Below, one piece after another: positions 19,694-59,673 of a stretch of DNA of 64,000 nt. The position numbers and the translations under genes were made by a program. Each line of letters opens with the position of its first letter. Position 1 is the stretch's first letter. The stretch lies in the sequence record PZ534534.1. One strand, written 5' to 3'. This DNA comes from a phage. Below the pieces are notes generated by a model. That model searched no databases. It worked only from the letters and a program-made list of their open reading frames with translations, and had not been told where the DNA came from.

Positions 19694-19723
19694 AAAAAGG
19701 GGCCAGACGGCCCCTTTCTTTTT
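19694..19723. terminator. bidirectional rho-independent terminator between convergent genes
   Basis: AAAAA-GGGGCC-AGAC-GGCCCC-TTTCTTTTT: hairpin flanked by A-run and T-run. Confidence 0.6.
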
Positions 19724-46697: not shown

Positions 46698-47069
46698 ATG
46701 TTAGTAAAAGGTACCCACACAGTCAAACAACGTATCGAAGTTGAGATCGATGACTGTGAGCTGAAGCATATTTTACGATCATGCTCCAACGTTTTGCTCC
46801 TCAGTATTCTCCAGGAGCGAGTGGAGAACGAGTTCTTAAATGCACTGGCAGGCCGCCCTGGTGACTTCTGTGTGCGTAAGCGTGGTGACAACAAGTCATG
46901 GCTGTGGGAGATAGACGCAGAATGGGATTACCACAAAAATGAGGGTATAGATGAGCCTATTCGTGAATTGACAGACAAAGAGGTTCAGACGTACAATGAA
47001 GTTTGTCATTGGGCAACACGCCAACAAATTTACCTCGACCCTGTGTGGCTGATTGAAAATAGTCATTGA
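46698..47069 (+). CDS. hypothetical protein
   Basis: ATG 46698 after AGAGGAGG RBS; 123 aa. Confidence 0.4.
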   Translation: MLVKGTHTVKQRIEVEIDDCELKHILRSCSNVLLLSILQERVENEFLNALAGRPGDFCVRKRGDNKSWLWEIDAEWDYHKNEGIDEPIRELTDKEVQTYNEVCHWATRQQIYLDPVWLIENSH

Positions 47070-47145
47070 CAAGAAGTAAGATTAGATATAAGATGCTTCA
47101 CACAAACAGAGAGTTGATTTTTAAATAATTGAGGAGACTGCTAAA

Positions 47146-47400
47146 ATGAAAATCATGTTGAAACCAGCATGCGTTGCAAATGACCGAGCTTTTAAAGATT
47201 GCACGCTTGGTGCTATTTATGAAGCAGAGTTTTGTGAGAACCCTTTAGTAAAAGCCCTTTTGGAAGAAGGGGCTCCTTTATCACAAGAAGAGATTGATGA
47301 GCTGGAAAACTCAGCCCAGTGCCTTACCTTTAAAGATGATGAAGGAGATTCTGTCTGGTGCACCGTTAACGAAGTGGTTTTTGTAAAACCTGAACATTAA
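47146..47400 (+). CDS. small protein, paralog family member
   Basis: 84 aa; AFKDCTLGAIY...DDEGDSVWCT; GAGGAG RBS. Confidence 0.45.
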   Translation: MKIMLKPACVANDRAFKDCTLGAIYEAEFCENPLVKALLEEGAPLSQEEIDELENSAQCLTFKDDEGDSVWCTVNEVVFVKPEH

Positions 47401-47403
47401 TAC

Positions 47404-47432
47404 TTGACAAGAAAGATGGGGCCAGATATAAT
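47404..47432 (+). promoter_or_regulatory. sigma70 consensus promoter with palindrome around -10
   Basis: TTGACA-N17-TATAAT; GGGGCC (47418-47423) and GGCCCC (47433-47438) flank the -10. Confidence 0.55.
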
Positions 47433-47463
47433 GGCCCCATCTAAGAAAAAGGAGACCATAGCA

Positions 47464-47724
47464 ATGACCAAACAATATCAACGAATTAAAGCCAAGGTTA
47501 AGCCAGACTATCTGGAGAAGGACTCCGCTTTTCGGGACTGCACAGCTGACAAAGTTTACACAGGGGCCGTCCTGTTGAACGATAAACTTGAAGTAGATGT
47601 GCTGGGTAAAGAGGCCGTTATCGAGGATGACAACGGTGACTGTGTTTTCTGCACCACACGGGAGCTAGAAGTCTTAGAATACTTCGGTGAAATCTTCAAC
47701 TCCTTAGACGACGAGGAAGCGTGA
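47464..47724 (+). CDS. small protein, paralog family member
   Basis: ATG 47464 after AAGGAGA; AFRDCTADKVY...DDNGDCVFCT mirrors the 47146 protein. Confidence 0.45.
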   Translation: MTKQYQRIKAKVKPDYLEKDSAFRDCTADKVYTGAVLLNDKLEVDVLGKEAVIEDDNGDCVFCTTRELEVLEYFGEIFNSLDDEEA

Positions 47725-48678: not shown

Positions 48679-48707
48679 TTGTAATTTGCAGAAGGGGATG
48701 CTAAAAT
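48679..48707 (+). promoter_or_regulatory. sigma70-like promoter
   Basis: TTGTAA-N17-TAAAAT upstream of 48752 gene. Confidence 0.4.
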
Positions 48708-48751
48708 AGTGTCTCCTTCTATGTTGTTCAAATAAAATCGGAGATTCCATA

Positions 48752-54472: not shown

Positions 54473-54479
54473 TACTTGA

Positions 54480-55000
54480 AAATTCCTGGCATATCAAGTA
54501 TAAGGGGGATTTCTAAAATGGATTTCCTCCTTTTGATATTTCACCGGGCTGGATATTTTAAAATTCTTAGAAAATCAGAAAATGGATCGAAAACTAAAAT
54601 GGATTTTTCAGAGTAGGCGCGACAAGCTGAATAGCTCATCCTATCGTTTGCACCATATTCCAGACCACCATTATAGATTTCCCACACATGCTAACCTCCC
54701 TCTACTAGAACTTCCTCCACTTACCCTTGACCTTCTATGGTAACAATCTAACCACTATCTTGAAGTTGCGGTGCAGCTTTCCAGGTACTCGATCTACTTT
54801 TCATTCCAGGGCTTGGATTTTCTGAAAATTTTTCTCGATAAATTTCTCAGTACTCGATCTGTTTTTCGTTTTCTGAATCGGATTTTCTGGAAATCGTTCC
54901 GGATCTCGACCTGAAATTTTTGGGGACGAAATCTATTTTTCGTTTTCAGAAATGGATTTTTAAAATTTCTATATGGGAATATTTTATGGGGCACTGTTTT
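54480..55000. repeat. AT-rich non-coding region with iteron-like direct repeats
   Basis: AAAATGGATTT at least 4 times; GGATTTTCTGRAAAT twice; about 45-bp unit TACTCGATCT...GGATTTTCTG at 54786 and 54851. Confidence 0.5.
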
Positions 55001-55108
55001 ATAGGAAATTGTTACGGAGGGTAATTAGCATGCTAATTAAATTTATTAAATGCGAGGGATTCTTATTTAGAATTTTGAATGATAATTATTCTCGTTTGCA
55101 GAATAACG

Positions 55109-55146
55109 GGCAGGCCCGGTGATTGTCTCCCGGCCCCTGCTGCCCC
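55109..55146 (+). repeat. GC-rich motif, copy A
   Basis: Contains CCCGGTGATTGTCTCCC inside AT-rich surroundings. Confidence 0.5.
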
Positions 55147-55247
55147 GGCTTGTTATTATAGTATCACACAGGACAAAGAAGGCAAGGATTTTTTGCATAA
55201 ATTTTTAAATGATAATGATAACCGTTCTCATTTTATGAAGCGCCCAT

Positions 55248-55285
55248 CCCCGGTGGTTGTCTCCCCCGTCACCGGTGCCTGCCGT
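55248..55285 (+). repeat. GC-rich motif, copy B
   Basis: CCCCGGTGGTTGTCTCCCCCGTCACCGGTGCCTGCCGT; direct repeat of copy A. Confidence 0.5.
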
Positions 55286-55437
55286 CCTTTCGATAGGTAT
55301 ATTATGCCGCCTGGCGGGGCCGCTGTCAACACTTTTCAAAAAATTTTTCTAACCTGATGCGCTAACCGTTGCAACCTGGCGGGGCCAGCCTGGCAGGTCC
55401 GCACTATAAAGTAAACAGCTACAGAAGAGGTACAAAA

Positions 55438-56391: not shown

Positions 56392-56440
56392 ATACACAAA
56401 AGGCGGGAATGTTTCCCGCCAACACAAAGGAAAAAAGATC

Positions 56441-56837: not shown

Positions 56838-56883
56838 TTTATTTTTAGATGGCCTTGACTCCAGGGCCATCAATAAAGTAAAC
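56838..56883 (+). promoter_or_regulatory. conserved hairpin plus TAAAGT element, copy 1
   Basis: GATGGCC(56848-54)/GGCCATC(56865-71) stem, loop TTGACTCCAG, then 13 bp to TAAAGT (56874-79); gene starts at 56917. Confidence 0.5.
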
Positions 56884-57064: not shown

Positions 57065-57115
57065 AAGCACATAAACGGGAAAACTTCCCAGAATACACAA
57101 AAGGAGAAAAACACC

Positions 57116-57459: not shown

Positions 57460-57505
57460 TTTATTTTTAGATGGCCTTGACTCCAGGGCCATCAATAAAG
57501 TAAAC
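57460..57505 (+). promoter_or_regulatory. conserved hairpin plus TAAAGT element, copy 2
   Basis: Same sequence as copy 1; next gene starts at 57545. Confidence 0.5.
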
Positions 57506-57794: not shown

Positions 57795-57835
57795 TTTTTT
57801 CGGTGGTCCTGGTAGCAGGGCCATCTATAAAGACA
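57795..57835 (+). promoter_or_regulatory. degenerate copy of hairpin element
   Basis: GGTGGTCCTGGTAGCAGGGCCATCTATAAAG retains right arm and TATAAAG box; upstream of 57866 gene. Confidence 0.3.
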
Positions 57836-57865
57836 GTTTATCAACACAATGAAAGGAGAAAGTAC

Positions 57866-58902: not shown

Positions 58903-58959
58903 TAAACACGTAAACGGGAAAACTTCCCGCCACTAACAAAGAAAACAGGAGAAAATATC

Positions 58960-59619: not shown

Positions 59620-59673
59620 AAAACTCAAGGGGGCAAGACGTTTGCCCCCACACAAAACAAAGAGGAAAACATC

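What the first reader, a model, noticed from the sequence alone, without database searches (positions are those of the whole stretch)
47404..47438. Consensus promoter with a palindrome flanking the -10 box
A perfect TTGACA-N17-TATAAT promoter has GGGGCC immediately upstream and GGCCCC immediately downstream of TATAAT, a GC clamp-like inverted repeat absent from the other sigma70-like promoters here. This may be an operator or a structure that modulates open-complex formation.
Basis: seen in the sequence. Interest (0 to 1): 0.4.

Follow-up and report, generated by a model that had tools for sequence, protein, structure and literature searches.

The report
Phage promoter overlapped by RNA hairpin
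A perfect host-type promoter in an rV5-like coliphage sits inside a conserved stem-loop whose loop carries the -10 box, a promoter/stem-loop cassette of a kind already described in T4-like phages, so it is real but fairly ordinary.

Summary
TTGACA-N17-TATAAT lies at 47404-47432. A perfect 11-bp inverted repeat (47414-47424 / 47432-47442) puts most of the -10 box in its loop. It is the most stable simple hairpin in the window. GGGGCC is 3 nt upstream of TATAAT, not adjacent to it.

The window is a Vequintavirus (rV5-like coliphage). The element fills the 63-nt gap between two small paralogous genes of unknown function.

Across 18 sequence variants from relatives:
- the -35 box and the 17-nt spacing never change, and the -10 box is TATAAT or TACAAT;
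- the stem keeps pairing through G-C to A-U swaps, with G·U intermediates on the gene-sense strand only;
- the antisense hairpin is usually weaker.

This points to a working sigma70 promoter overlaid on a sense-strand RNA stem-loop. That stem-loop can form only in transcripts arriving from upstream. It does not look like an operator.

The layout matches the "PeSL" promoter/stem-loop cassettes of RB49 and phi1. The same GGGGCC-N3-TATAAT-GGCCCC module sits upstream of unrelated genes in Erwinia phage Hena1, Pectobacterium phage PcCB7V, a Warwickvirus and other phage contigs.

What the hairpin does (attenuation or 3'-end protection) is inferred. It has no U-tract. In this genome it is not part of a repeated family.

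Verdict: new member of a known kind, modest interest.

The parts
47066..47094 (+). Upstream promoter (rV5 P220 equivalent), TTGACA-17-TAAGAT. It is the nearest source of transcripts that read through the hairpin.
   Evidence: Annotated as P220 in rV5 and listed in Table S4 of PMC3606486.
47146..47400 (+). Upstream gene, 84 aa (rV5 gp215/ORF220 homologue, phrog_12544, function unknown). Its TAA stop is at 47398-47400, 13 nt before the stem.
47404..47409 (+). -35 hexamer TTGACA
   Evidence: Invariant in all 18 variants.
47414..47424 (+). 5' arm of the stem, AGATGGGGCCA. It lies inside the promoter spacer.
   Evidence: Covariation.
47425..47431 (+). Loop GATATAA, which contains the first five bases of the -10 hexamer.
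47427..47432 (+). -10 hexamer TATAAT. Relatives have TATAAT or TACAAT.
47432..47442 (+). 3' arm of the stem, TGGCCCCATCT. It spans the GC-rich discriminator GGCCCC (47433-47438) and the predicted start site.
47439..47439 (+). Predicted transcription start (A, 7 nt after the -10 box). Transcripts from this promoter lack the 5' arm and so cannot form the hairpin. This is an inference.
   Evidence: Inferred from standard sigma70 geometry applied to the sequence.
47449..47454 (+). Shine-Dalgarno sequence AAGGAG, 9 nt before the ATG.
   Evidence: Conserved as GG(G/A)GA in relatives.
47464..47724 (+). Downstream gene, 86 aa (rV5 gp214 homologue, phrog_11936, function unknown). It is a paralogue of the upstream gene.
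   Evidence: (E = 3e-8)

Best explanation
This is a composite promoter/stem-loop cassette of the PeSL type, packed into a 63-nt gap between two paralogous small genes of unknown function in an rV5-like coliphage.

Shown:
- A consensus sigma70 promoter (TTGACA-17-TATAAT) is conserved in sequence and spacing.
- A 9-11-bp GC-rich stem is conserved as a structure on the gene-sense strand, with the -10 box in its loop.

Inferred:
- Host RNA polymerase starts at about A47439 and transcribes the downstream gene with a short unstructured leader and a strong Shine-Dalgarno sequence. This transcript lacks the 5' arm and cannot form the hairpin.
- Transcripts coming from upstream promoters (47066 and beyond) contain both arms and fold the hairpin 13 nt after the upstream stop codon.
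- There the hairpin acts as an attenuator or pause, or as a 3'-end-protecting stem. It separates expression of the upstream cistron from the downstream one, which is re-driven by its own promoter.
- The GC-rich discriminator is probably a by-product of the 3' arm and may make the promoter more dependent on supercoiling or initiating-NTP levels.
For: Promoter:
- It is a 12/12 match. Three perfect sites occur in the window against 0.07 expected.
- The -35 box and the 17-nt spacing are invariant, and the -10 box varies only at its third position, in 18 variants. About one third of the other intergenic columns vary.

Hairpin:
- RNA fold -22.1 kcal/mol, z = -6.0.
- 94% of cells are paired, against 28-45% when the 3' partner is slid by 1-3 columns. 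Three pairs change on both sides. G·U cells number 13 and A·C cells 2. 11 of 500 shuffles reach the covariation score.
- The sense RNA is more stable than the antisense RNA in 15 of 18 variants.
- The window's allele differs at about 12 of 63 intergenic positions from the common allele, yet keeps both the promoter and the stem. This includes an outer A-U to U-A flip.

Non-coding status:
- 1-nt indels occur in phages Alma and CM1.

Known kind:
- PeSLs are described as near-consensus sigma70 promoters with Gn-loop-Cn stem-loops, most often between -35 and -10 or overlapping -10. They lie between an upstream stop codon and a downstream Shine-Dalgarno sequence, and show G-T pairs (PMC2839356; PMC4122927).
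- I saw RB49 PeSLs directly in the RB49 sequence.

Recurrence of the same module upstream of unrelated genes:
- Found in Hena1, PcCB7V, swan01 and IMG/VR contigs. The downstream proteins of Hena1, PcCB7V and swan01 are unrelated to the window's.
- Among 5 independent promoter families picked only for GGGCC-N3-TAYAAT-GG, 4 complete the 3' arm.

Context:
- The flanking genes are paralogues, which fits duplication of a promoter-plus-gene module.
Against: - There is no U-tract after the stem (AAGAAAAAGG here, AAAACGAAAGG in relatives), whereas all 20 terminators listed for rV5 have one. Classical intrinsic termination is therefore not predicted.
- No transcript data exist for any Vequintavirus, so neither the start site nor a 3' end is shown.
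- Divergence among relatives is shallow (84-96% identity). The covariation statistics are suggestive, not decisive, and the sequences are related to one another.
- Hairpins are not generally enriched at strong promoters in this genome (p = 0.63). This element is a singleton here, not one copy of a repeated cassette as in RB49.
- rV5's authors did not list a promoter or a terminator at this site.
Confidence: 0.6

Rival explanations
1. DNA-level control. The palindrome is an operator for a dimeric phage or host protein, or it extrudes as a cruciform under negative supercoiling. Either way it gates open-complex formation at this one promoter.
For: - The repeat brackets the -10 box exactly, and its centre is AT-rich, which favours extrusion.
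- The DNA hairpin folds at -12.9 kcal/mol, z = -5.5.
- The discriminator GGCCCC is unlike the AT-rich discriminators of the other strong promoters in the window.
- Cruciform-regulated E. coli promoters are known (Horwitz and Loeb 1988, from my own knowledge).
Against: - Stem bases change while pairing is kept.
- The intermediates are G·T on the sense strand, which are A·C mismatches on the other strand. The antisense hairpin is weaker in 15 of 18 variants, falling to -4.7 kcal/mol against -14.4 for the sense strand in the L008 variant. A cruciform needs both strands to fold.
- No second copy of the half-site occurs at other promoters in the window.
- An 11-bp arm is short for extrusion in vivo.
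Confidence: 0.15
2. Hairpin only. The element is an intercistronic terminator or stabiliser stem-loop, and the promoter-like hexamers are incidental and not used.
For: - The GGGGCC/GGCCCC stem is the same as in rV5's bidirectional terminator t026/t027 (window 19696-19717).
- The rV5 paper lists no promoter here.
- The usual AAAATAGT-type AT-rich motif upstream of the -35 box, seen at other early promoters, is missing.
Against: - A 12/12 match with optimal spacing is very unlikely by chance.
- TTGACA lies outside the stem yet is invariant, while the adjacent spacer bases vary.
- Within the loop, the three bases outside the -10 box vary, while the key -10 positions do not.
- The same stem appears with TTGACA, a 16-17-nt spacing and TAYAAT/CATAAT in other phage genera.
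Confidence: 0.1
3. Promoter only. The inverted repeat is a decaying remnant, for example of a former terminator, with no present function.
For: - Some relatives carry a mismatch in the stem: HMD-6, Murica, and CM1 with an internal loop.
- The covariation statistics are modest.
Against: - In the core 9-bp stem, 133 of 135 cells are paired across 15 distinct sequences, with compensatory changes at two positions.
- The stem survives in two intergenic alleles that differ by about 19%.
- The same architecture recurs in unrelated phages.
Confidence: 0.1
4. Coding sequence. The region is the N-terminal extension of the downstream gene. The in-frame ORF from TTG 47404 gives 106 aa, and several GenBank records start the CDS inside the element.
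For: - ORF listing reports 47404-47724 as open.
- rV5 gp214, naam_93 and an ECP32 CDS are annotated with upstream starts.
Against: - A 1-nt deletion in Alma and a 1-nt insertion in CM1 fall inside the putative extension.
- A conserved AAGGAG sits 9 nt before ATG 47464.
- Substitutions follow base-pairing, not codon positions.
Confidence: 0.03

Closest known systems
PeSL (promoter-early stem-loop) cassettes of T4-like phages RB49/phi1, PST and nt-1 (Arbiol et al. 2010, PMC2839356; Comeau et al. 2014, PMC4122927)
   Same: - Both lie in the gap between an upstream stop codon and a downstream Shine-Dalgarno sequence plus ATG.
- Both have a near-perfect TTGACA-N17-TATAAT promoter.
- Both have a G-run/C-run stem-loop with G·T pairs on the sense strand. 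'Overlapping the -10 box' is one of the two commonest placements.
- Both flank small genes of unknown function.
- I saw RB49 examples directly, for example GGGGATAT-AGCATA-ATATCCCC around CATAAT.
- The Hena1 version of this module matches that RB49 PeSL at 20 of 22 bases (E = 0.01).
   Different: - The host phage is from a different family (Vequintavirinae, not Straboviridae).
- Here it is a single element, not one of dozens of about 100-bp repeats. Hairpins are not enriched at this genome's strong promoters.
- The AT-rich tract upstream of the -35 box is only partial.
- No link to indels or mini-circles was shown here.
Rho-independent terminators of rV5, especially the bidirectional t026/t027 (GGGGCC-N4-GGCCCC followed by a T-tract)
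   Same: They share the same GGGGCC/GGCCCC stem core and an intergenic position just after a stop codon.
   Different: - There is no U-tract on the sense strand.
- The loop is 7-9 nt instead of 4.
- A promoter is embedded in the element.
Intercistronic mRNA-stabilising stem-loops, such as the stable hairpins between T4 early genes (Tuerk et al. 1988) and 3' protective hairpins in polycistronic operons. This comparison rests on my own knowledge.
   Same: A sense-strand GC-rich hairpin shortly after a stop codon inside a polycistronic unit, with no U-tract.
   Different: Those hairpins are not normally built around a promoter's -10 box. No decay data exist for this phage.
Cruciform- or supercoil-gated sigma70 promoters (Horwitz and Loeb 1988) and the hairpin early promoters of phage N4. 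This comparison rests on my own knowledge.
   Same: An inverted repeat centred on core promoter DNA.
   Different: - The strand-asymmetric G·U pattern argues for RNA rather than a two-strand DNA structure.
- N4 hairpins have 3-nt loops and use a virion RNA polymerase, not sigma70 boxes.

Membership tests
PeSL composite promoter/stem-loop cassette | It lies between the stop codon of one gene and the Shine-Dalgarno sequence and start codon of the next. | tested here: met
   TAA at 47398-47400, AAGGAG at 47449-47454, ATG at 47464.
PeSL composite promoter/stem-loop cassette | It has a near-consensus sigma70 early promoter (TTGACA-N17-TATAAT). | tested here: met
   12/12 match with a 17-nt spacer, conserved in 18 variants.
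PeSL composite promoter/stem-loop cassette | It has a stable stem-loop with a G-run and a C-run, positioned within or overlapping the promoter boxes, with G·T pairs on the sense strand. | tested here: met
   GGGGCC...GGCCCC stem around the -10 box, -22.1 kcal/mol. G·U pairs appear in relatives.
PeSL composite promoter/stem-loop cassette | It has an AT-rich tract upstream of the -35 box. | tested here: inconclusive
   The upstream sequence is CATTAATAC. It is AT-rich but short and overlaps the end of the gene. It lacks the AAAAATAGT-type motif of other early promoters in the window.
PeSL composite promoter/stem-loop cassette | It occurs as many conserved copies per genome, concentrated among small genes of unknown function. 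| tested here: not met
   - Only one copy of this stem type sits at a promoter in the 64-kb window, which contains the whole early unit.
- Hairpins are not enriched at sites matching at least 10/12 (p = 0.63).
- Other composite elements exist but have different sequences.
- Two copies per genome do occur in a Certrevirus-like contig and in a jumbo-phage contig.
PeSL composite promoter/stem-loop cassette | It is associated with gene shuffling or indels through recombination between cassettes. | tested here: inconclusive
   - The flanking genes are tandem paralogues, each with its own promoter.
- The window's allele shares TTGACAAGAA and AGATATAA with the neighbouring promoter at 47066.
- No gene gain or loss at this site was seen among 116 relatives.
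PeSL composite promoter/stem-loop cassette | It has demonstrated promoter activity and attenuator/terminator activity. | not testable with these tools
   This needs reporter assays or transcript mapping. For RB49, the activities are reported in PMC2839356.
Rho-independent (intrinsic) terminator | A GC-rich hairpin followed at once by a U-tract on the transcribed strand. | tested here: not met
   - The sense-strand tail is AAGAAAAAGG.
- Only the antisense strand meets the scan's T-rich tail rule (TTCTTGTCAA), and the antisense hairpin is the less conserved one.
- All rV5 terminators listed have T-tracts.
Operator for a dimeric DNA-binding protein | The palindromic half-sites are conserved in sequence and usually reused at other regulated promoters. 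| tested here: not met
   The half-site sequence varies while pairing is kept. The half-site does not recur at other promoters in the window.
Rfam RNA families | A match to a curated covariance model. | tested here: not met
   No hit reached gathering score in the window. Only chance-level hits (E about 1 or higher) fall in 47300-47560.

The most novel reading that the evidence does not exclude
The '-10 box in the loop of a GGGGCC/GGCCCC hairpin' could be a distinct, horizontally spread promoter module. It occurs in three Vequintavirinae genera, a Warwickvirus and jumbo-phage contigs.

In this reading the hairpin is an active switch rather than a passive attenuator. For example, the RNA hairpin made by read-through polymerases, or a DNA cruciform that responds to the fall in supercoiling during infection, could turn the embedded promoter on or off. 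That would time the expression of individual early genes without any protein regulator.
Probability: 0.1. Interest if true: 0.6.

Novelty: new member of a known kind. Interest (0 to 1): 0.25.

Why it matters
It extends promoter/stem-loop cassettes of the PeSL type, described so far only in T4-like phages, to rV5-like phages and their relatives. It also shows that one specific form recurs upstream of unrelated genes in several phage lineages.

There are three practical consequences:
- It flags a promoter missing from the rV5 annotation.
- It suggests that CDS starts placed inside the element in several GenBank records are wrong.
- It offers a compact natural part, a strong promoter with a built-in upstream insulator, that could be tested for synthetic biology.

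It does not open a new biological question by itself.

Tried and rejected
- **Rfam.** Nothing was found in the whole window at gathering score or in the local region at E up to 10.
- **tRNA scan.** None found.
- **The search for related loci with the downstream protein.** Only 2 viral contigs came back.
- **tblastn of the downstream protein.** Homologues occur only inside Vequintavirus, so deeper covariation at the orthologous site was not possible.
- **Metagenome scan for TTAATACTTGACA-N17-TAYAATGG.** Of 60 hits, only 4 were rV5-like. The rest are unrelated promoters, though some also have the -10 box in a hairpin loop.
- **Enrichment of hairpins at strong promoters in 44.8-64 kb.** Negative (p = 0.63). 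I therefore dropped the claim that this genome has a PeSL-like repeated family.
- **Pfam and PHROGs on seven neighbouring proteins.** All are of unknown function.
- **Literature search for Vequintavirus transcriptomes.** Nothing relevant.
- **Antisense-strand terminator reading** (flagged by the scan). Rejected, because all genes here are on the + strand and the antisense hairpin is the less conserved one.
- **Coding-extension reading.** Rejected because of frameshifting indels.
- **Sequence kinship with the GATGGCC...GGCCATC repeat family at 56.8-61.2 kb.** Only loose similarity, so not claimed.
- **First alignment attempt (A1).** I gave wrong coordinates for two loci, so I redid it as A2.

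Full report
**What is there.** The window is an rV5-like coliphage of the genus Vequintavirus. The region 46900-48100 matches 116 phage records at 84-96% identity, including rV5, FV3, Murica and slur16.

The finding sits in the 63-nt gap between two small + strand genes, 47146-47400 (84 aa) and 47464-47724 (86 aa). The sequence reads TAA-tac-TTGACA-agaAAGATGGGGCCAGA-TATAAT-GGCCCCATCT-aagaaaAAGGAGaccatagcaATG.

The promoter match is exact: TTGACA at 47404-47409, a 17-nt spacer, and TATAAT at 47427-47432, 12 of 12. Three perfect TTGACA-N16-18-TATAAT sites occur in the window, against 0.07 expected from dinucleotide shuffles.

It is 11 perfectly complementary bases, 47414-47424 and 47432-47442, around the 7-nt loop GATATAA. 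GGCCCC abuts TATAAT, but GGGGCC is 3 nt away from it.

As RNA the + strand folds at -22.1 kcal/mol (z = -6.0), the - strand at -20.7 (z = -3.6), and + strand DNA at -12.9. It is the most stable simple hairpin on either strand of the 64-kb window.

**Is either part conserved?** I collected the orthologous gap from GenBank phages, IMG/VR contigs and metagenome contigs. They gave 18 distinct sequences.

- *Promoter.* The -35 hexamer and the 17-nt spacing are invariant. The -10 box is TATAAT or TACAAT. By contrast the four spacer bases next to the -35 box, the three loop bases outside the -10 box, and about a third of all intergenic columns vary.
- *Stem.* On a 15-sequence alignment (A2), 94% of cells in the 10-pair stem form standard pairs. 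Sliding the 3' partner by 1-3 columns drops this to 28-45%. In the core 9 bp chosen by RNAalifold, 133 of 135 cells pair.
- *Covariation.* Two positions run G-C, G·U, A-U. rV5 itself has GATAGGACC/GGTCCTATC. The outermost pair flips from U-A to A-U in the window's allele.
- *One-sided changes.* They give G·U on the gene-sense strand (13 cells) far more often than A·C (2 cells).
- *Strand asymmetry.* The sense-strand RNA hairpin is more stable than the antisense one in 15 of 18 variants, often by about 5 kcal/mol.
- *Strength of the statistics.* They are modest: 11 of 500 shuffles reach the covariation score, the divergence is shallow, and the sequences are related. The direction is consistent throughout.
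- *Two alleles.* The window's intergenic allele is shared only with Shigella phage CM1 and differs at about 12 of 63 positions from the common allele. Both the promoter and the stem survive in both alleles.
- *Non-coding.* One-nucleotide indels in Alma and CM1 show the gap is not coding, although several records start the downstream CDS inside it.

**Interpretation.** Pairing that is kept while the sequence drifts, with wobble pairs on one strand only, is the signature of an RNA structure on the sense strand. It is not what a protein operator or a two-strand cruciform would show.

With standard sigma70 geometry, transcription from this promoter starts at about A47439, inside the 3' arm. The promoter's own transcript therefore cannot form the hairpin. 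Only transcripts from upstream contain both arms. The nearest upstream promoter is the rV5 P220 equivalent at 47066.

The hairpin begins 13 nt after the upstream stop codon and ends 6 nt before the Shine-Dalgarno sequence. It therefore marks the 3' boundary of the upstream cistron, and the downstream cistron is re-driven by its own promoter.

What the hairpin does to read-through RNA is inferred, not shown. It could attenuate or pause transcription, or protect a 3' end. It has no U-tract, whereas all 20 terminators listed for rV5 do. One of those, t026/t027, uses the same GGGGCC/GGCCCC stem.

**Comparison with what is known.** The layout matches the PeSL cassettes described for the T4-like phages RB49 and phi1. 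These are near-perfect sigma70 promoters combined with Gn-loop-Cn stem-loops. [quoted passage not shown] One RB49 stem-loop reduced downstream lacZ as strongly as rrnB T1 (PMC2839356; PMC4122927).

I checked RB49 directly. In 100-150 kb of its genome, many TTGACA-N17-TATAAT sites carry GGGGATC...GATCCCC stems in the spacer. Two carry stems across the -10 box, for example GGGGATAT-AGCATA-ATATCCCC. The RB49 stem-loops also lack U-tracts.

Several rV5 early ORFs are annotated as similar to RB49 hypothetical proteins.

**The same module elsewhere.** A 69-nt query and two pattern scans found the same module upstream of unrelated genes:
- Erwinia phage Hena1: TTGACA-17-CATAAT with GGGGCC/GGCCCC.
- Pectobacterium phage PcCB7V: TTGACA-16-TATAAT. 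A related 152-kb contig carries two copies, at different genes.
- Warwickvirus swan01.
- A 453-kb and a 170-kb phage contig, with two copies each.
- One further contig.

The downstream proteins of Hena1, PcCB7V and swan01 are unrelated to the window's.

Of five independent promoter families selected only for GGGCC-N3-TAYAAT-GG, four complete the complementary 3' arm, and the fifth has its hairpin in the spacer. The Hena1 copy matches an RB49 PeSL at 20 of 22 bases (E = 0.01 against 50 kb), which is suggestive only.

**Limits on membership.** In this genome the element is a singleton. Among 18 sites matching at least 10/12 in the early region, only this one and 56364 (a 5'-UTR hairpin) have hairpins of -9 kcal/mol or stronger. 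There is no enrichment over background (p = 0.63).

Other composite elements do exist, but their sequences differ. They are the hairpin at 48690-48720, with TAAAAT in its loop, and the repeat family with TTGACT in the loop at 56848, 57470 and 61187.

So the element works like a PeSL and has the PeSL anatomy. The 'many conserved copies' criterion is not met here. Association with gene shuffling is only hinted at: the flanking genes are tandem paralogues, and the window's allele resembles the neighbouring promoter at 47066.

**Verdict.** The promoter reading is well supported. The 'operator or open-complex modulator' reading is less likely than a sense-strand RNA stem-loop overlaid on the promoter.

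This is a new member of a known kind, a PeSL-type promoter/stem-loop cassette seen here in Vequintavirinae. It is unannotated in rV5. Interest is modest unless the hairpin proves to gate the promoter actively.

Noticed in passing
window 56848-56883, 57470-57505, 61187-61222; degenerate copies at 57802-57836 and 55382-55416: A repeat family, GATGGCCTTGACTCCAGGGCCATC-AATAAAGTAAAC, lies directly after stop codons in the early region. It forms a 10-bp hairpin with TTGACT in and around the loop, followed by a conserved ATAAAGTAAAC. The 61187 copy has a compensatory GGTC/GACC change. It may be another promoter/stem-loop cassette, or a phage-specific promoter class.
   Followed up: partly
window 48679-48720: A second hairpin has a -10-like hexamer in its loop: AGAAGGGGATGC-TAAAATA-GTGTCTCCTTCT at -17.4 kcal/mol. 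TTGTAA lies 17 nt upstream, and there is a TGn extended -10. It is conserved in relatives and is annotated as a terminator in phage Murica, although it has no clear T-tract.
   Followed up: partly
window 54473-55078: This ORF-free stretch holds three direct repeats of 47-62 nt at 65-74-nt spacing, plus four copies of a TTTCTAAAATGGATTT-like 16-mer. It probably corresponds to the 'non-coding' box on the rV5 map. It looks like iterons and could be an origin of replication.
   Followed up: no
window 56402-56420, about 57075-57090, 58913-58931, 59629-59649, about 62402-62415: Several early promoters (56364, 57037, 58875, 59592, 62361) are followed about 10-15 nt after the -10 box by short GC hairpins in the predicted 5' UTR, such as GGCGGGAATGTTTCCCGCC and CGGGAAAACTTCCCG. 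These may be 5' stabilisers of the mRNA.
   Followed up: no
window 55301-55329, - strand: An 11/12 promoter-like site (TTGACA-17-CATAAT) lies antisense inside ORF 55079-55357. It could be an antisense promoter or a chance match.
   Followed up: no
GenBank MG0656xx records: Sixteen records named 'Campylobacter phage', with host Campylobacter jejuni, are about 95% identical to E. coli rV5-like phages over this region. The host assignment looks doubtful.
   Followed up: no
L003 1786-2079 (rV5 gp214), L078 617-925 (naam_93), L014 586-879 (ECP32), L084 368-661: These downstream-gene CDSs are annotated with start codons inside the promoter/hairpin. Frameshifting indels in Alma and CM1, and the conserved Shine-Dalgarno sequence plus ATG, suggest these starts are wrong.
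   Followed up: partly
L022, L028, L069 (metagenome contigs); L096-L099: Unrelated environmental contigs also show consensus promoters with the -10 box in a hairpin loop, for example CTCTATCTGA-TATAATGGATT-TCAGATAGAG. Others have a GGCCC-TTCG-GGGCC hairpin in the spacer. The design seems widespread.
   Followed up: no
window 47066-47094 versus 47404-47432: The window's allele of the finding shares TTGACAAGAA and AGATATAA with the neighbouring promoter 338 bp upstream, whereas the common allele in relatives does not. This may reflect gene conversion between the two promoters of the tandem paralogues.
   Followed up: no
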